A stretch of 60,098 bases of DNA from Thermoplasmatota archaeon (GTDB lineage Archaea > Thermoplasmatota > Penumbrarchaeia > Penumbrarchaeales > Penumbrarchaeaceae): positions 1-60,098 of the forward strand of contig JARVGK010000019.1 of assembly GCA_029762535.1 (NCBI GenBank), given 5' to 3'. The notes below the pieces were generated by a model. The model did not search any database, had not been told where the DNA came from, and was given only the letters and a program-made list of their open reading frames with translations. Both the position numbers and the translations under genes were made by a program. Position 1 is the stretch's first letter. Each line of letters begins with the position of its first letter. Shown here one piece after another: positions 42,114-60,098 of the stretch.

Positions 42114-42515
42114 TCACAGGACCCTGGCCCAGGCCTCCTCGGGGATATCGTCATAGACGCTGATGCCGTCGGGATCCACGCTGTCGCATTGGTCCGATCC
42201 TGCGCAGGCGACGGTGTTTATGGTGTTCTTCTTGAGGAGCCAGTAGTGTATCCTCCACTCCCTGCCGTCATAGAGGGTCGTTTCCTCCCTCTCGGTGACG
42301 AGCAGCCCGAAATCCTCGAGCATGTAGAAGAGATCGCGGTCCTCGGGCTCGAGAATGTTGTCCACGATCCGATCCCCGAAGCCGAAGAAGTTCAGGACAT
42401 GGTAGGCCATGTTCTGTGCGTCGTCCTTGGTCATGTTGTGCTCCTTGTACGAGTTCATTATCGCTGAGGTCAAACGATTCAAGCAAACGATCCTGTCCAT
42501 TGCCTTAAAATCCAT
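42114..42515 (-). CDS. DUF6015-like conserved protein
   Basis: VLNFFG..DRI.DN.LEPEDRD.FYMLED.GLL.TEREETTLYDGREWRIHYW, recognised from memory. Confidence 0.75.
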   Translation of the reverse strand: MDFKAMDRIVCLNRLTSAIMNSYKEHNMTKDDAQNMAYHVLNFFGFGDRIVDNILEPEDRDLFYMLEDFGLLVTEREETTLYDGREWRIHYWLLKKNTINTVACAGSDQCDSVDPDGISVYDDIPEEAWARVL

Positions 42516-42702: not shown

Positions 42703-43206
42703 TTGGCGGACGACGACAAGAAGCATCAGAAGAGGCTCAAGGAGGCCAGGAAGGTCCTCGAGAAGAACTATCGCCTCTATCAGGAGGGAAAGATCACCAC
42801 CGACGAGCTCAAAGAGAAGCTGAGGCCCTACAAAGCGGAGCTCATCGAGCTGAAGCTTCTAAAACCCGACAAGGCCGAGGAGAGGCCTCCGGAGGCCGTA
42901 GAGGCCAGGACCATGCCGTTAACGATAAGGGCCGGGCCATGGAAGAGAACGTCCACCCTCACGGAGGACGAGGTCCGCCGTAGGATAGACCAGATATCTT
43001 CACGAGGCCCCTCAGATGGATTGAAGGAGGTCTACAGGCAGCGTTTCGGCGAGGACCTATCCCCGCCGTCCGAAAAGGTCCTCTTCGAGATAAGGGAAAG
43101 GGCCGCAGAGGCCCCCGAAGAAGAGCAAGCCGTGGAAGAGGGGCCCAGGGATATGTCGGACAGGTCCAAAGGCTTCCTCAAGACCCTCTTCAAAAGGGGC
43201 AGATGA
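42703..43206 (+). CDS. Hypothetical protein (SHOCT-like N-terminus, amphipathic C-terminus)
   Basis: TTG start after GGAGGG; LYQEGKITTDELKEK; ends KGFLKTLFKRGR. Confidence 0.7.
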   Translation: MADDDKKHQKRLKEARKVLEKNYRLYQEGKITTDELKEKLRPYKAELIELKLLKPDKAEERPPEAVEARTMPLTIRAGPWKRTSTLTEDEVRRRIDQISSRGPSDGLKEVYRQRFGEDLSPPSEKVLFEIRERAAEAPEEEQAVEEGPRDMSDRSKGFLKTLFKRGR

Positions 43207-43227
43207 TAAAGACAGGAGGAACGATCA

Positions 43228-44145
43228 TTGGATAACCGAAACGATTATGATCAGGCCACGACGGTCTTCTCTCCGGACGGCAGGGTGTATCAGGTGGAAT
43301 ACGCCAGAGAGGCCATCAAGAGAGGCGGCCTAGCCATGGCCATGAAGTTCAAGGACGGCATCATATTCACGATAGACAAGACAATGCACTCCAAATTGGT
43401 GGAGGAGGACGATCTGCGCAAGTTCTACAGGATAACGTCCTCCGTCGGCGCGGCGGCCTCCGGCCTCATCGCCGATGCCAGGGTGCTGTGCGATATCCTG
43501 CGGGACATATCCCAGGAGGAATACAAACGCTACGGGGAGCAGGTAGACGTCAAGTACCTCGTCAACAGGATATCTAGAATATGCGAGATATACACGAGGT
43601 ACGAGGGCGTCAGGCCGTTCGGAACCTCTTTGATAATCGGAGGCAAGGATTCCACCGGATACAGGCTATACGAGACCGATCCCTCCGGCGTGTATCAGGA
43701 GAGGGCCGCAACGGCCATCGGGACCGGCTCGGAGATCGCGCTGCCCCTTCTTGAGAAGGGATACATCCCCGAAATGGAGAGGAGCGCCGCCCAGGTCCTG
43801 ATCTGCGATATACTCAAGGAGATCATATCCGCCCGTGATCCGGACGAAATCTCTGACCTTGAGGTCCATATAGTCACGGACGAAGGCTTCGTGATGATAG
43901 ATATCGATAGGGACCGCCTCATAAAGGGCTATCCTGGCGAATTATGTCCGGCAAGACCGGGAGCGGATGATCTTGACGCTTTCCTGGACTCGATCGGTGG
44001 ATTGTCCATCGATCTAAAGAGCGCGTTGAATGAACATTACTCTTCGAGGCAGGCCCTTGCCGATGCGAAGGATTCGGACCTCCTCAAGATCAAGGGCATG
44101 GGCCCCGCTATCCTCAAGAGGATAAGGAAGGCCCAGGAAGGTTGA
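43228..44145 (+). CDS. psmA: Proteasome alpha subunit with C-terminal tandem helix-hairpin-helix extension
   Basis: YD..TVFSPDGR.YQVEYAREA, SGL.ADARVL, RPFG.SL, TDPSG, AIG.G; extension LDSIGGLS...DLLKIKGMGP. Confidence 0.88.
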   Translation: MDNRNDYDQATTVFSPDGRVYQVEYAREAIKRGGLAMAMKFKDGIIFTIDKTMHSKLVEEDDLRKFYRITSSVGAAASGLIADARVLCDILRDISQEEYKRYGEQVDVKYLVNRISRICEIYTRYEGVRPFGTSLIIGGKDSTGYRLYETDPSGVYQERAATAIGTGSEIALPLLEKGYIPEMERSAAQVLICDILKEIISARDPDEISDLEVHIVTDEGFVMIDIDRDRLIKGYPGELCPARPGADDLDAFLDSIGGLSIDLKSALNEHYSSRQALADAKDSDLLKIKGMGPAILKRIRKAQEG

Positions 44146-44149
44146 GGGG

Positions 44150-45081
<932 letters not shown>

Positions 45082-46296
45082 TCAGCACTCCTCCTCCTTG
45101 ATCCTGCTTATGATCCTCGTGGTGCAGTCTATATCCCCCTGCCTCTTCCTGAGCCTCTTCACCTTCGAGCCGATCCCCCTCTCCCTCAGCTGTGACTCAA
45201 GTTGGGCCGTCTCCGGTTCCTGATCGTAGCCAAGTACTATCATGTCAGGCCCCAGCTCCTTGACGATCCTGAGCGGATCCGCCTCATACCCCAGCAGGGC
45301 GAGGTCCACGATCCCGAGCGATTCGACCATCTCCCTTCTCGCCCTCTCGTTGTTTATGGGCTTCCTTTTTTGTCTCCTGACGGTGGAGTCCCTTGCCACG
45401 ACCACGACCAGCTCGTCGCCCAGCCGCTTCGCCTGGCTCAAGAAGCTCAGGTGGCCTGGATGCAGAATGTCGAAGACCCCGGTCGCCATCACCCGGACCC
45501 CGCCTCTGTTCGGAAAGGATATGAGGCCCTTGTCCAGCTCAGAAGGCTCCGTATCGGTCTGATCGGGCGGCCTGTAGGTGCGCTTCCATTCGCCTTCCCA
45601 TGCACTCCAGGCATCTATGATCTGCTTTCCCTCGAGGAAGGGGATCCCGTTCTGTCGGGCGTATTCCATCACCGAGGCCTTGGGCATCGCCCTGCCGTTG
45701 TCGCCCATTATCTCGCATCCGACGGTCACCCCGGAGAGGCCAGCCATGGTCGATAGGGCGCAGGATAGCTCGGTATGCCCGAACCTGTTCTCAAGGATGC
45801 GGTCCGATCCAAGGCATATCGGGACGTGGCCAGGTGTCCTGAATCGCTCCCCGAACAGCTGTATGGCGTCGGCGTAATCCAAGTCCGCGGTCTCCATGGC
45901 GGTAAGGGCGAAGTCCTGCACCGTCAGCGCCCGATCGTTGTCCGTTATCCCTGTGAAAGTTCTCCTGTGATTGATCGATATCGAGAAGGATGACTTGGTA
46001 TCGTATGGTATGTCGTCAGGGATCAGGGTGTCTATCACCGGATATCGATGGTTCATTCCGGGGTACAGGTCCTGCAGGAACGGCAGCCCCAACTTGTCCC
46101 TTATATCGGGCCTTACCATGAGGAATATCAGCCCTCCCCCCTCCTTCCTCATGGTCCTGATGTGCTCGCTCTTGCAGAACTCCGCGGCGAGGAAGAAATC
46201 GCACTCCTCCTCTCTGCCATCCGCATCGTAAACCAGTGCGAAACTGCCATCTTTGAGGCTCTCGATCGCTCTTTCCACGTTATCCGGGGCCATCAT
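45082..46296 (-). CDS. ribB: Fused 3,4-dihydroxy-2-butanone-4-phosphate synthase (RibB) and FAD synthase (RibL)
   Basis: N-terminal D.DGRE.E.D, TGITD.DRALT, PGHV, GHTE, CE; C-terminal ATGVFDILHPGH, VVVVARD, LGYDQ. Confidence 0.88.
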   Translation of the reverse strand: MMAPDNVERAIESLKDGSFALVYDADGREEECDFFLAAEFCKSEHIRTMRKEGGGLIFLMVRPDIRDKLGLPFLQDLYPGMNHRYPVIDTLIPDDIPYDTKSSFSISINHRRTFTGITDNDRALTVQDFALTAMETADLDYADAIQLFGERFRTPGHVPICLGSDRILENRFGHTELSCALSTMAGLSGVTVGCEIMGDNGRAMPKASVMEYARQNGIPFLEGKQIIDAWSAWEGEWKRTYRPPDQTDTEPSELDKGLISFPNRGGVRVMATGVFDILHPGHLSFLSQAKRLGDELVVVVARDSTVRRQKRKPINNERARREMVESLGIVDLALLGYEADPLRIVKELGPDMIVLGYDQEPETAQLESQLRERGIGSKVKRLRKRQGDIDCTTRIISRIKEEEC

Positions 46297-51828: not shown

Positions 51829-52656
51829 TTGACGGACGAGAGCGCACCACAGCAGGCACAGGCACCCCAGATGGAAGCCTGTAAAGGGCCCTCGGGTTAT
51901 ATATTCATCCTTGCCATGATGCTACTGGTCTTCATCATGTTCGGCGGCCTCGGTGACAGCGTGGCCTCGATCGCGGGGGTCGTCCTCGACCCCCTCATAG
52001 GGTTCAACGGAAGGTACCCTGTCATCACCATGCTCCTGGCCGGGTCCACTACGATAATAGTCTCCACCATAACAAGGCACTTCATGGTGGACTGGGTCGA
52101 GATGGCCCGCAAGCAGAAGATCCTTGGAGAATACAACAAACAGGTGAGGGCGGCGACGAAGTCCGGGGACCCGAAAGCCTCCCAGAAGCTCAACGAGCAG
52201 AACCAGGACATACTGGGCATGCAGTCATCTATGATGATGGACCAGATGAAGAGCTCCGTTATCACTATGGTCATAGCCATACTGATATTCAGATGGCTCT
52301 TTTCCTTCATCCAGGGATTGGAGCATCCGACCCTGGCGGTCCCCTGGGACCTGCATTTCCCGCTCCTCGATTACGCTCTCGAGCAGGTTTGCGGCAGCGT
52401 ATGCGCCATGGGCAGCGGCGGGGGCATACCTTACTGGATCCCGATATACGTGATAATAACCGTGCCCATAGGACAGGCCCTGATGCGGGGCCTCAAGTAC
52501 TTCCAGTTCTCCAGAAAGCTCAAGAACGATGGTTTGGACGTGTTCGGGATCATGACGCCGAAGGCCCCACGGGAGGCCCCCAAAGCGCCCAGTGAGAAGA
52601 AGGAGACACCGAAACAGAAGGCCCAGAGGGAGAGAGACGAGCTCAGACAGAGGTGA
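51829..52656 (+). CDS. DUF106 / EMC3-TMCO1 (Oxa1 superfamily) membrane insertase
   Basis: TM, coiled coil, Met-rich Q..MM..QMK, W...Y motif. Confidence 0.82.
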   Translation: MTDESAPQQAQAPQMEACKGPSGYIFILAMMLLVFIMFGGLGDSVASIAGVVLDPLIGFNGRYPVITMLLAGSTTIIVSTITRHFMVDWVEMARKQKILGEYNKQVRAATKSGDPKASQKLNEQNQDILGMQSSMMMDQMKSSVITMVIAILIFRWLFSFIQGLEHPTLAVPWDLHFPLLDYALEQVCGSVCAMGSGGGIPYWIPIYVIITVPIGQALMRGLKYFQFSRKLKNDGLDVFGIMTPKAPREAPKAPSEKKETPKQKAQRERDELRQR

Positions 52657-52660
52657 TGTT

Positions 52661-53578
52661 ATGAGGAAACTGATACAGGTCGGCAAGGTAAAGGAGGTCT
52701 ACGAGGTCGATGACCCGGATCTTCTCGAGTTCACTTTCACGGACAACATATCCGTCTTCGACAAGATAATCCCTACATCCATCCCTCGAAAGGGGGAGAC
52801 CCTTTGCAGGACATCCGCCTACTGGTTCTCGAAGTCCTCGGAGCTGGGGGTCGGGACCCATTTCAAGGAGATGACTGGACCGAACTCGATGCTGGTGAAG
52901 AGGGTGAGGATCGAGAGGGACATGAAAAAGATAACGCCGGAGTCGAATTCCATATTGATCCCTCTCGAGATCATCGCCCGCTACTATGTGGCGGGATCGC
53001 TCCTTGACCGGTTGAAGAAGGAGAAGGTCAAGCCCGAATCCGTCGGGTTTGCCCCGGGCCATGTCCCCAAGTACGGGGAGGAACTCCCGGAACCTCTCAT
53101 CGAGGCCACCACGAAGCTCGAGGAGATCGACCGCCCCCTCACCGATAAGGAGGCGATGGACATGGCGAAGCTGTCAAAGGACGAGTGGGACCACATGGTG
53201 GAGGCGGTCCTGAGGATCGATGAGGCGATGAACAGGAGCGTCAAGGATCGGGGATTGATACACGTTGACGGGAAGAAGGAGTTCGGCTTCGATGCCGAGA
53301 GGGTGCTGATGCTCCTCGATACGTTCGGGACCGCCGACGAGGACCGCTTCTGGGATCGGGAAGCGTATGAGAGAGGAGAGCTAGTGGAGCTCTCCAAGGA
53401 GACGGTGAGGCAGCATTACCGGTCATCGGGTTACTTCGACACACTAATGGCGGCAAGGGACAAGGGGATCCCCAAGAAGGAGGAGCCCCCGATCCCCGCC
53501 CTGCCCCCCGAGATGGCCGAAAAGGTATCCCGCCTCTACATCGATCTCTACGAGCGGATCACCGGCGAGAAGTTCTAG
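52661..53578 (+). CDS. purC: SAICAR synthetase
   Basis: GKVKEVY, D.ISVFD, KGE.L, PLE.I.R, VDGKKEFG, DEDRFW; GAGGTGA SD before ATG 52661. Confidence 0.95.
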   Translation: MRKLIQVGKVKEVYEVDDPDLLEFTFTDNISVFDKIIPTSIPRKGETLCRTSAYWFSKSSELGVGTHFKEMTGPNSMLVKRVRIERDMKKITPESNSILIPLEIIARYYVAGSLLDRLKKEKVKPESVGFAPGHVPKYGEELPEPLIEATTKLEEIDRPLTDKEAMDMAKLSKDEWDHMVEAVLRIDEAMNRSVKDRGLIHVDGKKEFGFDAERVLMLLDTFGTADEDRFWDREAYERGELVELSKETVRQHYRSSGYFDTLMAARDKGIPKKEEPPIPALPPEMAEKVSRLYIDLYERITGEKF

Positions 53579-53589
53579 TGAAAGGTCGG

Positions 53590-53634
53590 CCGGTATACCG
53601 GGCGTCTTCTGGCAGATCTCGACCGGTATACCGG
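53590..53634. repeat. Two copies of the 12-bp palindrome CCGGTATACCGG, 33 bp apart
   Basis: Exact copies at 53590-53601 and 53623-53634. Confidence 0.8.
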
Positions 53635-53723
53635 GCATGTTCGTGATCTTCGATCCATTCCGGTCGTCTTGGACCATGATGAGGTGGTCATCTATCAGAG
53701 GGTAGGCCTATAGGATCTCCCCC

Positions 53724-53828
53724 TTACGGAGTAGGATCCCGGACCGCGGAGGGGATCGGGGGGCTGGGAGCATCAGGGGTTTGTTGGGGGGATCCCCTTC
53801 TCCTCAACATAACCGCGGCAACGATCCC
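53724..53828 (-). pseudogene. C-terminal remnant of a membrane-anchored surface protein related to the gene at 55561-56394
   Basis: Translates GIVAAVMLRRRGSP... versus GIASAVIILKRRGSP; 21/22 nt identity between 53786-53807 and 55638-55659. Confidence 0.65.
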
Positions 53829-53907
53829 CGCACTCCCTCCGGAGATGGTCCGGAAGGTATCCCGCCTCTACGTCGATCACTTCGGGCGGATCGCCGGCGA
53901 GAAGTAA
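53822..53907 (+). pseudogene. Diverged duplicate of the purC 3' end
   Basis: IPALPPEMVRKVSRLYVDHFGRIAGEK* versus purC IPALPPEMAEKVSRLYIDLYERITGEKF*; 13 mismatches in 81 nt by hand count. Confidence 0.85.
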
Positions 53908-53966
53908 CACCTGTCGCTACCTCTCCAAACTGGCCGTGTTCTCCGATCAGTGACGACTGCTTTTGA

Positions 53967-55292
53967 TCATTCCAGGGAATGGAAAATGTCCTTGCATGTC
54001 TGAAGCCAATTTTCCATTGACAACAAGATGAATGCAGGGACAAGGAGTATCCTCCCTCTTCTTTCGAGAAGGTCCTTTGTGGCGACGATCCCCATCTCGA
54101 GATCCCTCTTCTCGACGAACCAGGATATGGTCCTGAGGTCCCTCCCATCGATCTTGCTCGAATACTTCACCTCAACAGGCAGCGGCATATCCCTATCTCT
54201 TGCAATTATATCGATCTCTTTATTACCATCCCTGTAAAAGAATACAGGGTCCAGATTTGACACCATAACGTTCTCGATCACCCTCCCTATCTCCGGGGTG
54301 TCGATCTCTCCATCAAAGGATTCGATGATGCATGGATGGGCAAGATATATCCTTTTGGCCTTCTTCGATGAGGTCAGGAAATTCCTGTGATAGGAATACA
54401 CTCTGATGAGGCAATAAGCACTGAGCAGGGCTCTGAGGTATTTGGATACTGTCTGTCTTGAGATGCCAAGGTCATCACCCAGGGAGCTGAGGTCAACTAT
54501 CATTCCGGGATTTGAGGAGAAGATCTTCAACATCTCCCTCACGAGGTCCGTATCCTTGATCCCTTCAAGTTCCTTCAGGTCCTTGTTGATAATATTATCG
54601 ACAACGGAGGACCTCACATACATCGATCTGAATCTCTTCTCCTCCCCGATGATCTCGATGAACCCCCCGGAATGGGCATACTCTACCATTTCCGCGATCC
54701 GCGTCCTTCCCTCGAGCATCGCTTCCTTGATACCATCCACTGAGTGGATAGGGGCCATCTCCTTCTTTCCCGAGAACCTGAGGAACTCCAGGAAGGAAAG
54801 GGGTCTCAGTGTGTTCTTGAGGATCCTTCCGGCAAGGACCGATCCTGAGGTCGCCTCGATCTCCATACCTGAACTTCCAGATATGACGAACTTCAAATCC
54901 TCATCGAGATCGTATAATACCTTGATGCTCTCAGCCCAACCATCGAGCTTCTGGATCTCATCGAGAAAGATGTACTTCCTGCCATCCATCTGTCCTTGCA
55001 GGTCCTCTCTGAAGGTTTTCAGGACATCCTTCAGGCCATGGCCCTTGATATCGAAGGTGAAATAGAGGATGTTCCTGGGATCGGTCCCCTCCACGATCAA
55101 TCTGTCGATGAGCTGGAACATCAAGGTTGACTTTCCGACCCTCCTTAAGCCCACGATAGATACGATCTGTCTCTTGTCCATCATGTCCCATAGGAAGGGA
55201 AAGAGGTCTCTCTTCATCCTCTTCGCAAGGTGTAGGGGTACCCGGCCTTCGGTCCACCATCTGTTCAATTCCGACATCTCGTTAATGTCCAT
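53967..55292 (-). CDS. AAA_14 ATPase with wHTH and DUF4143 (PD-(D/E)xK-like) C-terminus
   Basis: GLRRVGKST, FLDEIQ, SGS, L.GR, PLSF.EF, GG.., EIDII, PVEVK. Confidence 0.9.
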   Translation of the reverse strand: MDINEMSELNRWWTEGRVPLHLAKRMKRDLFPFLWDMMDKRQIVSIVGLRRVGKSTLMFQLIDRLIVEGTDPRNILYFTFDIKGHGLKDVLKTFREDLQGQMDGRKYIFLDEIQKLDGWAESIKVLYDLDEDLKFVISGSSGMEIEATSGSVLAGRILKNTLRPLSFLEFLRFSGKKEMAPIHSVDGIKEAMLEGRTRIAEMVEYAHSGGFIEIIGEEKRFRSMYVRSSVVDNIINKDLKELEGIKDTDLVREMLKIFSSNPGMIVDLSSLGDDLGISRQTVSKYLRALLSAYCLIRVYSYHRNFLTSSKKAKRIYLAHPCIIESFDGEIDTPEIGRVIENVMVSNLDPVFFYRDGNKEIDIIARDRDMPLPVEVKYSSKIDGRDLRTISWFVEKRDLEMGIVATKDLLERRGRILLVPAFILLSMENWLQTCKDIFHSLE

Positions 55293-55302
55293 TGCTGGGG
55301 AA

Positions 55303-55357
55303 TATGTTAATTCTAATTAACATACTTTTCGTTTATATGTTAATTACAGTTAACGTA
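55303..55357. promoter_or_regulatory. Twin palindromic operators at the ATPase promoter
   Basis: TATGTTAATT-CT-AATTAACATA (55303-55324) and TATGTTAATT-AC-AGTTAACGTA (55336-55357). Confidence 0.65.
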
Positions 55358-55560
55358 ATTTCCATTCCATATCGATCTCTTTCCATGGGGGCCAAGGTCA
55401 TGATACTGAAATTGATGATCGGACCAGGGTACTTAATGATGGGCCAGACCGGGTCTGCCTGGGCAATTCCGAGCTGTGGTCCATTTCGCTCGTGACCGTC
55501 GGCTTCGGGATGATCCCTTTGCTCAAGCATGACATGAGAAGGCTTTCGACCCTCCCGGGA

Positions 55561-56394
55561 TCACCGATCCAGATGTTCCTGGGTGTGGGGGCATTCGTCG
55601 TTAGGATGCTCATCGCCCGATCCACTATATGATGCGAGGGGGGATCCCCTTCTCTTCAAGATAATGACCGCTGATGCGATCCCGAGAAGGAGGAGGAGAA
55701 CGACGATAAAAGAGATCGCAACTACCAGAACCAGTCGAGAGTCCTCCTTCACCTTGCCCTCCACGGGATCGGATAATGGGCCCTCTCCGTTATCGTTTAC
55801 TGCGGATACCCAATATTGATATCTCCTTCCTCTTTCAACGTCTCGATCCACGTATTCGAGTATGTCCGGCCCGACCTCGACAATGAGTATAGTGCTTCCT
55901 TCGGAATATGACCTGTAGATCAGGTATTTTATGATCGGCAATCCTCCGGTATCCTCCGGAGGACCCCAGGAAAGGGAGATCGCTTTGGAAGCGGCCTCGA
56001 TCTCAACGTTCAGGGGAACGGAGGGTTTTCCCGAAGGAGTTGCGGAGATCGGTGGAGAATGCACGCTTTCTCCTATGGAATTGGTAGAGGTCAGGGTATA
56101 GTGGTATGTGACCCCGTTCGTCACCGTCGTATCTCTGAATGACCCTCCAAGTATCGACGTTGTCAATATCACAACGCTGGAGTTCGGATCCTCCCCGCGA
56201 TGTATCTTCATCTCGGTGACGGGATCCCCTCCGTCATCTTCCGATTCCGCCCAGGATATGTCAATAAATCCGTCCCCGGGAGTGATCTGAACATTCGACG
56301 GAGGGGACGGGATCCCTGCGGGCTTTGTGTTCTTGGTCTCTGTGGCTGCCCCCTCGCCAATAATATTTACAGCTGTGACCCTGTAATGATAAGT
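55561..56394 (-). pseudogene. FN3 repeat surface protein truncated at its 5' end by IS3
   Basis: Frame stays FN3-like upstream of 56211 (TYHYRVTAVNIIGEG...SW...DDGG) right up to the IS end; no signal peptide remains. Confidence 0.8.
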
Positions 56395-56455
56395 TGGAGT
56401 GCACCCCCAAAGTGATACAACAAGTTAAGCAACAAGAACACCATGGGGGTGTGAT

Positions 56456-56785
56456 ATGGGAAAAACACGGCGAAAATACACCAGGGAGTTCAAGTTGTCT
56501 GTCATTCGAGAGCTAGAATCGGGGATCTCTATCAGTGAGCTGGCCAGGAAAAATAATATTCATCCAGCTCTTCCAAGCAGGTGGAAGAAGGAATATTATG
56601 AAGACCCAAATCGTTCCTTCAGTGGCAATGGCAACATATACAAACTCGAAGCGAGAAACGCTGAGCTCGAAAGACTTGTTGGACAGCTTTACGCAGAGAA
56701 AGAGTTTTTAAAAAAAGCTATCGCCAACTTGGAAAGAATCAAGGAAGAGGAGACACGATTGGTAAAAAGGAGGCTGGATGCATGA
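56456..56785 (+). CDS. IS3 transposase OrfA (HTH)
   Basis: RRKYT.EFK, ELARK..I.P....RWK, coiled coil ending LKKA. Confidence 0.92.
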   Translation: MGKTRRKYTREFKLSVIRELESGISISELARKNNIHPALPSRWKKEYYEDPNRSFSGNGNIYKLEARNAELERLVGQLYAEKEFLKKAIANLERIKEEETRLVKRRLDA

Positions 56786-57663
56786 GCATTCAACAAATGA
56801 TATCCAGCTCTGGTTCATTGTCAATTGGTAGAGCCAGCCAGTTGCTCAGTCTTCAGAGAGTTGATTATTATCGTTGGATCGATAGAGTAGATTACCTCTC
56901 AAAAATAACCCATGAAGACAAGCTCATTCTGGAAGAGATCAGAGAAATAATCAAGGAATTCACGGGATACGGATATCGAAGAGTGACAATGGATCTGCGC
57001 AGACGCGGTAATGAAGTGAATCACAAACGTATTCTGAGATTGATGAAAGATAATGGATTATTATGCAAGAATAAACGTAAATTCATTCCAAGAACCACAG
57101 ATTCGAACTATGATAATCCAGTATATCCGAACTTGATCACTGGACTTGATGTAACCCATCTGGATCAGGTATGGGTGTCCGATATTACATACATCCAACT
57201 GGACAAGGGATTTGCATATCTGGCATGCATTCTTGACATCTTCACGAGGAAATGCATCGGATGGAACCTGTCAAATAACCTTAGGACAGATCTTGCGATG
57301 GGTGCTTTGAACATGGCTATTGACACGAGGTTGGGTTCAAAGGTCAATGGATTGATCCATCATTCGGACAGAGGTGTCCAGTATACGTCTCATGAATATT
57401 CGAATAAGTTGAAGGAACATGGAATACAGATCAGCATGAGCAGAAAGGGAAATCCATATGATAATGCGTTTGCAGAGAGCTTTTTCAAGACGTTGAAGGT
57501 TGAAGAGGTATATCTCAACGAGTATTCGGATATAGATGATGCGTGGGATAATATTCAGAGGTTCATCGAGGATGTCTACAATGAGAAGAGGCTTCATTCG
57601 GCATTGGGATACCGGTCACCTGTCGACTTTGAGAAGGAGGTGGCTTTAAATACAATTGCTTAA
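56782..57663 (+). CDS. IS3 transposase OrfB (DDE integrase core)
   Basis: YGYRR, WVSDITYI, HSDRGVQY, DNA.AESFFKTLK.E, R.HSALGY.SP. Confidence 0.95.
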   Translation: MSIQQMISSSGSLSIGRASQLLSLQRVDYYRWIDRVDYLSKITHEDKLILEEIREIIKEFTGYGYRRVTMDLRRRGNEVNHKRILRLMKDNGLLCKNKRKFIPRTTDSNYDNPVYPNLITGLDVTHLDQVWVSDITYIQLDKGFAYLACILDIFTRKCIGWNLSNNLRTDLAMGALNMAIDTRLGSKVNGLIHHSDRGVQYTSHEYSNKLKEHGIQISMSRKGNPYDNAFAESFFKTLKVEEVYLNEYSDIDDAWDNIQRFIEDVYNEKRLHSALGYRSPVDFEKEVALNTIA

Positions 57664-57879
57664 CTGTTTGTAACAACTTAGGGGTTCACTCCAACATTAA
57701 TACTTTAGTACCTGACATTATAGGTACCGCTTTGCCTAACATATAATTGAAATAATTCCCGATATCCATAATAATTAGGCGTTGACAGTTTGATCCGTCG
57801 GTTAATGCTGCTGGGTTTTCTCTCCCACAGAAATGAATCAAATACATTATTGAAAATAACTCAATTCTGGACATTTCAA

Positions 57880-59625
57880 TCACGTATTTTTCTCCTTTTT
57901 TCCATCTAAATCGGCCTTTTTGGCAGAATCTATCAGTATCTCTTTGGCCCGGTTGATCCTCTTCATCTTACCCTCATCCAACATTGTGCAGGAGTCTGGA
58001 TGATATTTCTTGGCAAGAATCCTGTATCTTTTCTTTATATTCTCTATCGAGGCTCTACTGCTTAGTCCAAGAACCCAGTATGGATCCTCTTCGAGGTGGC
58101 CCTCATGGTTTGGGATAATGACGAATCGGTCCTTCATCCTCTTTCTTCCTCTGTAAATGATGACTCCCGCTACTGCAAGCGCTCCCAGAAAGAGCAACAA
58201 GATAAAGAGGAGGAGTAGATTATTCATAGAGGTTTTACGGATCTCGTAATAAACAGGAGGAGACACCTGGACATTACCCGAATCGTCCGAGGCAAAGAAA
58301 GTGCAGGACAATCCATCTTTCATTCCCTTGGTCCATAAATCTCCGTAATAGGAACCGACCACAACACCGGGAGTGAGGTTCACATCTACCGTAATATCTC
58401 CGTCTTCGACGACAACCCAGGTTCTTTTCACACCTCGATTGTCGCTTGCTTCAACCATAAAGCTGATTCGATCCTTGCCACACTTCATCACTTGGGCATG
58501 TTCGATATAAGGGGCCGTTCCATCAAAGATCTCAATATCCATAGTACAACAACCTTCATTCAAACCGTAATCCCTCACCCACCCCGTGATATGGATAACA
58601 TGGGATTCGGGGGGGATCCAGATTTTAAAGGTCCCGTTTTCCGCGTAGAGCGAATAGGAATTGTATTCATTGTCGAAACCGTAAATTATACCGCATTCTT
58701 TTATAGAGACGAGATCGTAAAGCAAGGGACGCAATGAGAGATGATGGGAAGTGAGCGGTTCACTCTCAACTTTGAGTTCGATCAGAGGAAGGCCGATGTC
58801 CTTCACATCCAACGAGGTCTGGTTCACTCTCCAATTTCCTTCATTGTCCGATGCTCCGACGATATAGTGCATCTTGCTGGCGTTCTCCTGAACGTATATT
58901 GTGAAAGATTCGGGGATCCCGGATATGTTATAAGGAGGATTCTCATCGAACCAATACTTAAAGAATCCCCTCTTCACTTCAATATTGTCCCTTGTGAGGA
59001 ATTTAATCAGCATTGATCTACCGGTTCTCGGTTCATCACAATGAATTGTCTCGATCGTGGGTTTAATCGTATCCTGGATCGGGATCTCACGACTAACTTG
59101 CGGTTCAGGAGGGGGGATTCCACCCCCGGAATTCAGATCATTATCCTTATTATTGTTGTTAACATATATATGATAGCTCAAAATCTTACCGTCATGGGGG
59201 ATGATAAATTCTCCTATCCACGTGTTATTGCTTATCTTGATCAGATCTACATCTATCCATTGGCCATGAACGGAAAAAGAAGCAGAGGCATCGTTCACTT
59301 CAATGTTATCTTTTACAGTGAAAGATAAGGTGAAGATCTCCCCCGTTCTGGCTTCACTATCGCTTTCATCGATGACTTCTGGGTCGGTCCCCGATCCCCT
59401 GCTCGTTTCTGAAGCCGGTTCATCATCATCTTTGATGTTGATTTGATCGTAGCTATCCGGAAAGATATTTGAGGGATCCCCCTCAATCCCCGAGAAAGAA
59501 GGGATAAATAGAAGGATCACAAGAGTTAGCACGATAAACGCATGTCCATGCAAACACTTGCGCACACTATCCCTCCTTGGATCAAGGGAAGAGCAGTTAT
59601 TTCCTCTGAAGTTTCCATTGTCCAT
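57880..59625 (-). CDS. Surface protein with repeated Ig-like modules, TM and cytoplasmic J (DnaJ) domain
   Basis: N-terminal hydrophobic signal, D..P.I / DN..V repeats, TM, DPY.VLGL...IKK.YR.LAKKYHPD...INRA; start 59625 chosen because the longer ORF runs into the ISL3 element. Confidence 0.8.
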   Translation of the reverse strand: MDNGNFRGNNCSSLDPRRDSVRKCLHGHAFIVLTLVILLFIPSFSGIEGDPSNIFPDSYDQINIKDDDEPASETSRGSGTDPEVIDESDSEARTGEIFTLSFTVKDNIEVNDASASFSVHGQWIDVDLIKISNNTWIGEFIIPHDGKILSYHIYVNNNNKDNDLNSGGGIPPPEPQVSREIPIQDTIKPTIETIHCDEPRTGRSMLIKFLTRDNIEVKRGFFKYWFDENPPYNISGIPESFTIYVQENASKMHYIVGASDNEGNWRVNQTSLDVKDIGLPLIELKVESEPLTSHHLSLRPLLYDLVSIKECGIIYGFDNEYNSYSLYAENGTFKIWIPPESHVIHITGWVRDYGLNEGCCTMDIEIFDGTAPYIEHAQVMKCGKDRISFMVEASDNRGVKRTWVVVEDGDITVDVNLTPGVVVGSYYGDLWTKGMKDGLSCTFFASDDSGNVQVSPPVYYEIRKTSMNNLLLLFILLLFLGALAVAGVIIYRGRKRMKDRFVIIPNHEGHLEEDPYWVLGLSSRASIENIKKRYRILAKKYHPDSCTMLDEGKMKRINRAKEILIDSAKKADLDGKKEKNT

Positions 59626-59666
59626 AATGTAAGATATACTATATTCCAACATATATAATTTATTTT

Positions 59667-60098
59667 GGCTCTTCTCCCAATTTAGGTAAAAATTAGTACC
59701 GCCTGGCCTATCATGTTCTTTGGTGTCAAACAATGAAAGCCAAACGGTACAGATACGCTATACTCTTCAGGACTATTTTTACCTTCCTAGGATTCCATTA
59801 TGATAACTTCCTTATCAAGGACGATTGTCTTCACATATCATTGAAGAGATACAGAAAGACCGCCACATGTCCTAAATGCAACAAAAGGAACAAACTATCC
59901 AATGATTTCTATGAACGTAAAGTCAAGGACATGAACATAGGACCATTTGAGTGCTTCGTTACATTCTCACAGAACAAGATCCGATGCAAATGTGGATTCA
60001 GAGGTCATGAACTACTTGAATTCGTTAGACCCTATGCCAGATGTACTATCAGGTATGAACAATATATCTTTGAGTTATGTCAGAGAATGACATTGACC
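59667..60098 (+). mobile_element. ISL3-family element, left end (continues beyond window)
   Basis: GGCTCT terminus in an AT-rich target followed by an ISL3-type transposase. Confidence 0.7.
59733..60098 (+). CDS. ISL3 transposase N-terminus (partial, not in the ORF track)
   Basis: Manual translation MKAKRYRY...TATCPKC...YERKVKDM...IRCKCG...EFVRPYARCTIRYE..I..LC..MT, a zf-ISL3 pattern. Confidence 0.8.
   Translation, partial: MKAKRYRYAILFRTIFTFLGFHYDNFLIKDDCLHISLKRYRKTATCPKCNKRNKLSNDFYERKVKDMNIGPFECFVTFSQNKIRCKCGFRGHELLEFVRPYARCTIRYEQYIFELCQRMTLT

What the first reader, a model, noticed from the sequence alone, without database searches (positions are those of the whole stretch)
43228..44145. 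Divergent proteasome alpha subunit fused to a tandem helix-hairpin-helix domain
Seen: a complete alpha fold (about 230 aa) with the gate motif altered to YDQ and the Lys of the HbYX pocket apparently retained (DLRKF). A linker and about 55 aa follow, matching (HhH)2 as in the UvrC C-terminus (LDSIGGLS...L...YSS...LA.A...DLLKIKGMGP...I). Known: archaeal alpha subunits normally end after the core fold, and (HhH)2 binds DNA non-specifically. Inference: a specialised alpha paralogue that could display up to seven DNA-binding modules per ring, giving a nucleoid-tethered 20S particle or free alpha ring, for example to clear DNA-bound or cross-linked proteins. I know of no description of this fusion.
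Basis: partly seen in the sequence, partly recalled or inferred. Interest (0 to 1): 0.8.

Follow-up and report, generated by a model that had tools for sequence, protein, structure and literature searches.

The report
Second proteasome cap with DNA-binding tail
One family of uncultured sediment archaea carries, beside its normal proteasome cap subunit, a second remodelled copy that usually ends in a helix-hairpin-helix domain of the DNA-binding type, a combination I found nowhere else, which may make a loosely gated proteasome that clings to nucleic acid, although nothing about its function has been tested.

Summary
Observation confirmed. ORF 43228-44145 encodes a full proteasome alpha fold, a variable linker and an (HhH)2 domain. 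It is a second alpha (alpha2): the genome also has a canonical alpha1, one beta and two PAN ATPases. Alpha2 occurs in 21 of 23 other genomes of this family (Thermoplasmatota EX4484-6, Ca. Penumbrarchaeia) and was not found in other families among 301 phylum genomes. 16 of 22 copies carry the HhH tail: one gain, at least two clean losses. The tail is under purifying selection; only its second GhG hairpin is canonical. The YD-P-Y gate cluster and the HbYX pocket (K66) are intact. Family-fixed changes hit the IT switch (I12 to A/S/T, substitutions that raise basal activity 3-6 fold in Thermoplasma 20S), the pore annulus (G127E) and beta-facing helix H1. An orphan upstream gene, ending in an amphipathic motif or, in outgroups, a hydrophobic anchor, is linked in 22/22 loci. 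Best reading (0.4): a Haloferax-like alternative cap with a leaky gate and an accessory nucleic-acid tether. DNA binding, ring composition and cross-link clearance are untested. No paper describing the fusion was found; the scan had no note of it on other DNA.

The parts
43228..44145 (+). alpha2 gene: divergent proteasome alpha paralogue fused to (HhH)2, 305 aa, TTG start
43228..43908 (+). proteasome alpha core (aa 1-227)
   Evidence: PF10584 + PF00227; PRK03996 222.8 bits, over cut-off 219, TIGR03633 217.7, under 287; best PDB match 1pma_A E 3e-50
43246..43263 (+). gate N-terminus Y7-D8-Q9-A10-T11-T12: YDR to YDQ, and IT-switch I12 (T. acidophilum numbering) replaced by Thr here, Ala in most relatives
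   Evidence: A43258G (Thr to Ala) in related contigs; IT-switch mutants in PMC10349882
43420..43422 (+). K65, equivalent of K66 of the HbYX pocket, invariant
   Evidence: 67/67 alpha2 sequences
43597..43608 (+). pore-annulus segment R124-Y125-E126-G127 (canonical Q-Y-G-G): fixed Q125R and G127E
   Evidence: 68/68 alpha2; Glu in 1.4% and Arg in 2.3% of 222 other alphas
43909..43968 (+). variable linker (aa 228-247), longer and Lys- or Glu-rich in relatives
   Evidence: low pLDDT at 241-246; dN/dS 0.17-0.58
43969..44136 (+). (HhH)2 domain (aa 248-303)
   Evidence: dN/dS 0.12-0.40
44095..44103 (+). second, canonical GhG hairpin (G290-M291-G292); family consensus GIGKATAERI
   Evidence: G290 and G292 in 36/36, K/R/P at 293, T295 in 32/36, R/K298 in 36/36
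43214..43219 (+). AGGAGG ribosome-binding site of alpha2
42703..43206 (+). orphan operon partner, 167 aa: N-terminal helical hairpin, central helix pair ending Y..RYGE.L.PP, C-terminal (F/L)(W/L)KxLF amphipathic motif; outgroup homologues end in a hydrophobic segment
   Evidence: directly upstream in 22/22 loci, overlapping start/stop in genus g2; no Pfam or NCBIfam family

Best explanation
Alpha2 is a family-specific second alpha subunit that builds alternative 20S particles with the cell's single beta subunit (alpha2-only or mixed alpha1/alpha2 rings), as alpha2 does in Haloferax volcanii. Shown: paralogy, the alpha1/alpha2/beta/2xPAN inventory, intact YD-P-Y cluster and HbYX pocket, selection on the core and the tail, one gain and at least two losses of the tail, fixed linkage to the upstream gene. 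Inferred from published mutants: loss of Ile12 weakens the closed gate, so alpha2 caps would admit unfolded or damaged polypeptides with less need for an ATPase, while PAN/Cdc48 tails could still dock. Inferred from homology: the (HhH)2 tails, on flexible linkers at the outer rim of the ring, bind nucleic-acid backbone weakly through the second hairpin and gain avidity from several copies, concentrating this proteasome subtype on DNA (or RNA). The tail is an accessory targeting module, not the essential function. Inferred from linkage only: the upstream protein is a membrane-associated adaptor for alpha2.
For: Second alpha beside canonical alpha1 and one beta; two PAN genes in most family genomes, here ending MFA and MFG, Cdc48 ending YYG; same inventory as H. 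volcanii, where particles of different composition were isolated and alpha2 does not replace alpha1 (PMC2910475). Pocket and gate residues Y8, D9, P17, G19, V24, Y26, G34, K66, G80, L81 and the ring residue R86 are invariant, as are H1 R93, Q97, Y103. I12 is Ile in 23/23 alpha1 and A56/S8/T1 in 65 alpha2; I12A is about 3-fold and I12T 6-fold more active than wild type (PMC10349882). Core dN/dS 0.03-0.08, tail 0.12-0.40. Second hairpin matches the DNA-binding GhG consensus (PMC3905867); nearest solved domains are nucleic-acid binders.
Against: Helix H1, the alpha-beta contact (PMC4541365), is recharged in alpha2: I94 to E/D, I98 to mostly E, N99E, I101 to mostly R/K, so docking on the shared beta is uncertain. 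G127E could narrow or acidify the pore. The tail is absent from 6 of 22 copies, its first hairpin lacks GhG and its net charge is modest. This window's own tail lacks the conserved Thr (GMGPAI). I12 is A/S/T in about a quarter of other alphas, and the mutant data come from another species' homo-heptamer. HHH_5 is attached to several unrelated proteins in this genome.
Confidence: 0.4

Rival explanations
1. Alpha2 is an alternative proteasome cap, but the HhH tail does not target nucleic acid: it is a protein-contact or dimerisation module (as (HhH)2 in XPF/Hef dimers or, from memory, NusA and RNA polymerase alpha-CTD) or a dispensable appendage of a kind this lineage adds to many proteins.
For: At least two clean losses with the core still conserved; first hairpin degenerate, net charge -3 to +6; HHH_5 also ends an RDD membrane protein, a small TM protein and coiled-coil or repeat proteins in this genome; XPF-family (HhH)2 proteins form dimers (PMC3905867); no repair genes in the conserved neighbourhood.
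Against: The second hairpin keeps the full phosphate-binding signature (G290, G292 invariant, K/R293, T295, R298) while helix surfaces vary freely; dN/dS below 0.4 in all pairs.
Confidence: 0.25
2. Alpha2 no longer docks on beta. It forms a beta-free single or double ring that acts as a scaffold, holdase or sink for HbYX activators, held at the membrane by the upstream protein and, where the tail is present, bridging to DNA.
For: Recharged beta-facing helix H1 and acidic annulus; ring-interface changes nearly unique to alpha2 (Q121E 0.5%, Y160R 0%, M158Q 0.9%, K120Y 0.5% of other alphas); no second beta in any class genome; archaeal alphas can form beta-free double rings through H1 (PMC4541365); partner always adjacent and membrane-type.
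Against: R93, Q97, Y103 of H1 and the whole gate cluster are invariant, which is easier to explain if the ring still gates a proteolytic chamber; one beta serves two alphas in Haloferax.
Confidence: 0.22
3. The tail binds RNA, tethering the alpha2 proteasome to ribosomes or transcripts near the membrane for quality control of nascent membrane or secreted proteins.
For: The tail profile also matches the N-terminal HhH of archaeal eL32 (E 3e-6); membrane-type partner; the family is predicted to live on secreted peptidases and protein (PMC12220078).
Against: DNA-enzyme domains score higher; no ribosomal or secretion gene is linked.
Confidence: 0.1
4. The fusion is an assembly or frame artefact, or a decaying gene.
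For: TTG start; this window's tail is the most divergent of the family.
Against: 16 genomes and about 38 database proteins have the same architecture, independent contigs span the junction, and selection is purifying.
Confidence: 0.01

Closest known systems
Haloferax volcanii alpha1/alpha2/beta with PanA/PanB (psmA, psmC, psmB)
   Same: Two alphas, one beta, two PANs; alpha2 is non-redundant and yields particle subtypes (PMC2910475).
   Different: No HhH tail is reported there; here alpha2 is only 44% identical to alpha1, has fixed IT-switch, annulus and H1 changes, and a dedicated upstream gene. A common origin with haloarchaeal alpha2 was not tested.
Thermoplasma acidophilum 20S alpha subunit (PDB 1PMA; TIGR03633/PRK03996)
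   Same: Fold, YD-P-Y gate cluster, HbYX pocket (G19, K66, G80, L81), R86, RPFG and DPSG motifs.
   Different: R10Q, I12A/S/T, S35G/T36L, Q121E, Q125R, G127E, Y160R, recharged H1, and a C-terminal linker plus (HhH)2; below the TIGR03633 equivalog cut-off.
(HhH)2 domains of XPF/Hef, NAD-dependent DNA ligase, DisA, ERCC1, UvrC, haloarchaeal eL32
   Same: Five-helix tandem HhH, conserved second GhG hairpin with following K/R, T and R.
   Different: First hairpin degenerate (mostly IP[KR]LS); attached to a ring-forming protease cap, not to a nucleic-acid enzyme.
Tail-less divergent second and third alphas of other Ca. Penumbrarchaeia families
   Same: Extra alphas beside canonical alpha1 in most class genomes; in G024 and G028 the same partner gene lies directly upstream.
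   Different: None has an HhH tail or the R-Y-E-G annulus; their partner homologues end in a hydrophobic segment rather than a short amphipathic motif.

Membership tests
Proteasome alpha subunit (PF10584 + PF00227) | Ntn-hydrolase fold with alpha-type N-terminal signature, no catalytic Thr1 | tested here: met
Proteasome alpha subunit (PF10584 + PF00227) | Open-gate cluster Y8, D9, P17, Y26 | tested here: met
   invariant in alpha2
Proteasome alpha subunit (PF10584 + PF00227) | HbYX pocket residues G19, K66, G80, L81 | tested here: met
   invariant; roles from PMC10349882
Canonical archaeal PsmA (TIGR03633 equivalog) | Score over 287.35 bits; YDR motif and IT switch; ends after the core | tested here: not met
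   217.7 bits; YDQ and I12A/S/T; the canonical gene is G000:C15
20S core particle subunit | Assembles into heptameric rings that dock on beta rings through H1 | not testable with these tools
   Sequence is ambiguous: R93/Q97/Y103 kept, I94/I98/N99/I101 recharged
(HhH)2 domain (HHH_5 / HHH_2) | Two HhH motifs joined by a connector helix | tested here: met
   32/32 HHH_5, 31/32 HHH_2; five helices in the model; PDB profile hits
DNA-binding (HhH)2 | GhG in both hairpins | tested here: not met
   second hairpin GhG in 36/36; first hairpin mostly P-[KR]-L-S
DNA-binding (HhH)2 | Measured non-specific DNA binding | not testable with these tools
   needs a binding assay
Haloferax-type alpha2 (PsmC) system | Second alpha with one beta and two PAN ATPases in the same genome | tested here: met
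Haloferax-type alpha2 (PsmC) system | Orthology with haloarchaeal PsmC | not tested
   no haloarchaeal sequence was in the tree

The most novel reading that the evidence does not exclude
A prokaryotic proteasome subtype with built-in localisation: an alpha2-capped, loosely gated 20S particle that binds DNA through up to 7 (HhH)2 domains per ring and is held at the membrane by a dedicated adaptor, clearing DNA-bound or cross-linked proteins. It would be the first core-particle subunit with its own nucleic-acid-binding domain.
Probability: 0.15. Interest if true: 0.85.

Novelty: new variant of a known kind. Interest (0 to 1): 0.57.

Why it matters
To my knowledge 20S particles are targeted by separate regulators, not by domains fused to their own subunits. 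A fused nucleic-acid-binding domain would be a new way to localise proteolysis and a candidate archaeal route for removing DNA-bound proteins. Independently of the tail, alpha2 is a natural experiment on gating: a whole family carries the IT-switch substitutions that open the Thermoplasma gate in vitro, plus an acidic annulus, and natural tail-plus and tail-minus versions exist within one genus. The repeated alpha duplication in this class is also a simple model of how alpha rings became heteromeric. All parts can be expressed in E. coli.

Tried and rejected
Complex prediction of two alpha2 copies with the upstream protein gave no answer (score 0.01, partner fold uncertain); it is not used as evidence either way. 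No RNA holder was listed for the locus, so expression is unknown. The partner gave no usable ESM Atlas hit, no family and only generic helical-hairpin matches, Z at most 5.2. The hydrophobic moment of its C-terminal motif is high in many members but not all, so the amphipathic reading rests on the motif pattern and on the hydrophobic segments of outgroup homologues. Read-through or frameshifting that would restore an HhH in tail-less copies was rejected: no HhH in any frame of those loci. A single origin of tail-bearing copies without later loss was rejected (p-AU 7.5e-59). The larger alpha tree finished only in quick mode and has long-branch joins, so the origin of alpha2 (duplication within the class or acquisition) is unresolved. 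The Foldseek search was dominated by the alpha core, and the model's N-terminus is poor from a shallow alignment. The bacterial promoter scan was uninformative. Literature searches for proteasome alpha with HhH in archaea found no description; the class paper does not mention the proteasome. The library lacks most subscription papers.

Full report
Observation. The ORF at 43228-44145 (+) is 305 aa, starts at TTG 8 nt after AGGAGG and is followed tail-to-tail by the riboflavin genes. Pfam finds Proteasome_A_N (aa 7-29), Proteasome (aa 30-215) and HHH_5 (aa 253-301; 24.4 bits in the whole protein, 27.6-28 bits on the tail alone, cut-off 27). It passes the archaeal alpha subfamily model PRK03996 but not the equivalog TIGR03633. 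The best solved relative is T. acidophilum alpha (E 3e-50), and the alignment confirms YDQ for YDR and K65 for K66. AlphaFold predicts the alpha sandwich, a disordered linker near 241-246 and five short tail helices with high confidence. Contigs from two runs of another study cover 43228-44400 in one piece without gaps; run X1 may be the source of the window and is not counted.

It is a second alpha. The genome (93% complete) has exactly three PF00227 genes: canonical alpha1 on C15 (44% identical to this protein), one beta on C47 and this gene. It also has two PAN-type ATPases ending MFA and MFG, a Cdc48-type ATPase ending YYG and two PAC2-family proteins ending YFG and MYG. Named relatives are Thermoplasmatota of the EX4484-6 group, described as Ca. 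Penumbrarchaeia, uncultured protein degraders of anoxic sediments (PMC12220078). Alpha2 is present in 21 of the 23 other genomes of the family, each with an alpha1; the two without are 62% and 65% complete, and in one the partner gene runs off a contig end. Among 301 phylum genomes only this family matches the alpha2 profile strongly (E below 1e-118, against 1e-75 for the next best). Among 1.84 billion cluster representatives only one of the best 150 hits covers the whole fusion, and none of the others has an HhH. No class genome had more than one beta; most family genomes have two PANs. [quoted passage not shown]

History of the tail. 16 of 22 family alpha2 genes carry the HhH domain. Genus g5 (3 of 3) and three of four g2 genomes end after the linker with no HhH in any frame. 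On the alpha2 core tree this needs three changes, most simply one gain and two losses, and a clade of tail-bearers is rejected. Divergent extra alphas without tails are common in other families of the class, so a second alpha predates the tail. In eight genome pairs dN/dS is 0.03-0.08 for the core, 0.12-0.40 for the tail and 0.17-0.58 for the linker; dS is often near saturation, so these are rough. The tail is therefore maintained by selection where present but is not essential.

The tail. All 32 tails tested match HHH_5. A profile matches whole (HhH)2 domains of archaeal XPF, NAD-dependent ligase, Hef, DisA, ERCC1, archaeal eL32 and UvrC, in that order; in the genome itself the Hef tail is the best other match. 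The second hairpin is canonical (G290 and G292 invariant, then K/R/P, A, T, A, and R/K298); the first is degenerate (mostly IP[KR]LS); net charge runs from -3 to +6. GhG hairpins contact DNA through exposed main-chain amides, and one hairpin can be the binding site (PMC3905867), so weak backbone binding is plausible but inferred. The genome has 15 HHH_5 hits, among them an RDD membrane protein, a small TM protein and proteins with no other domain: the domain is promiscuous in this lineage, which lowers the weight of the fusion as evidence of a DNA function.

The core is remodelled (T. acidophilum numbering; 68 alpha2 against 222 other alphas). Kept: Y8, D9, P17, Y26; G19, V24, G34, K66, G80, L81; R86, R130; H1 R93, Q97, Y103. 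HbYX docking should thus be possible (PMC10349882). Changed throughout the family: R10Q/M; I12 to A (56), S (8) or T (1, this window), against Ile in 23 of 23 alpha1; Q121E, Q125R and G127E at helix 2 and the annulus; M158Q and Y160R; and I94E/D, I98E, N99E, I101R/K on H1. In T. acidophilum I12A raises basal activity about 3-fold and still responds to PAN; I12T raises it 6-fold and responds to neither PAN nor PA26. This predicts a leaky gate, with the caveats that the data are from another species and that about a quarter of other alphas also have A/S/T there. H1 is the alpha-beta contact (PMC4541365), so its recharging leaves open whether alpha2 docks on the shared beta. That E121/R125 and R160/E61 form compensating pairs favouring alpha2-alpha2 contacts is my inference from helix spacing and recalled structure, not tested.

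Neighbourhood. Synteny is nearly fixed in 22 loci: cdc6, a large surface protein, DUF6015 (divergent), orphan gene, alpha2, then on the other strand ribH, ribC, ribB-adenylyltransferase, TPR, zinc-ribbon and C45 genes. No repair gene is present. Only the orphan (42703-43206, 167 aa) shares the strand; it ends within about 45 nt of the alpha2 start and overlaps it in g2. It has two conserved helical modules and a C-terminal (F/L)(W/L)KxLF motif. Its homologues occur in 22 of 23 family genomes and in 7 other class genomes, all seven ending in a hydrophobic segment (Kyte-Doolittle 2.4-3.0); in G024 and G028 the gene lies a few bases upstream of a tail-less divergent alpha. The partner-alpha2 operon is thus older and more constant than the tail, and the partner is probably membrane-associated. 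Five of the seven outgroup homologues are not next to an alpha. A physical interaction is inferred from linkage only.

Mechanism. Most likely (0.4) alpha2 forms alternative caps on the common beta core, with a leaky gate and retained activator pockets, and the tail adds weak, multivalent nucleic-acid binding that biases where this subtype sits. Rivals: the tail is a protein-contact module or dispensable appendage (0.25); alpha2 forms beta-free rings (0.22); the ligand is RNA (0.1).

Comparison and novelty. It works like the Haloferax alpha2 system and is a member of the proteasome alpha family and the (HhH)2 fold; it is not a canonical PsmA, and it meets only half of the two-hairpin DNA-binding consensus. 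I found no paper on an alpha-HhH fusion and no earlier scan note of it on other DNA. Verdict: a real, lineage-restricted new variant of a known machine; architecture and distribution are certain, function is inferred. Interest 0.57.

Noticed in passing
G000:C91:84284-86113 (-) and G000:C16:20510-21784 (+) (L129, L130): Two PAN-type ATPases ending MFA and MFG (Phe in place of the HbYX Tyr); two PANs in most family genomes and in both same-order genomes, one in most other class genomes.
   Followed up: partly
L079-L084, L092-L097 (family f7 genomes G030, G032, G034, G036): Three alpha paralogues per genome with a single beta; two divergent clades, no HhH tails and no partner homologue found. A possible prokaryotic route to heteromeric alpha rings.
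   Followed up: partly
L118:1164-2528 (-), L116:1599-2348 (-), L121:1348-1842 (-), L120:1335-2570 (+): Uncharacterised proteins of this genome with HHH_5 domains sharing an 'A.P.DL' motif, including an RDD membrane protein and a small TM protein.
   Followed up: partly
window 42114-42515 (-): DUF6015 gene, divergent from the partner-alpha2 operon and conserved in 20 of 22 loci; its sequence suggests a winged-helix protein and it could share a promoter region.
   Followed up: no
window 45082-46296 (-): RibB (DHBP synthase) fused to a C-terminal cytidylyltransferase-family domain, probably archaeal FAD synthetase RibL; conserved in 19 loci.
   Followed up: partly
L018, L019, L022 (genus g2); L027, L101, P0046: Tail-less alpha2 of g2 end in a very Lys-rich linker, and some other alphas have Lys/Gly-rich tails; these could bind nucleic acid electrostatically.
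   Followed up: no
G000:C80:8372-11467 (-) (L133): A 1032-codon frame with an apparent signal peptide and Ig-like N-terminal region fused to a Cdc48/PAN-like AAA domain.
   Followed up: no
window 52000-60098: GC falls from about 57% to 43% at the end of the contig, suggesting an island.
   Followed up: no
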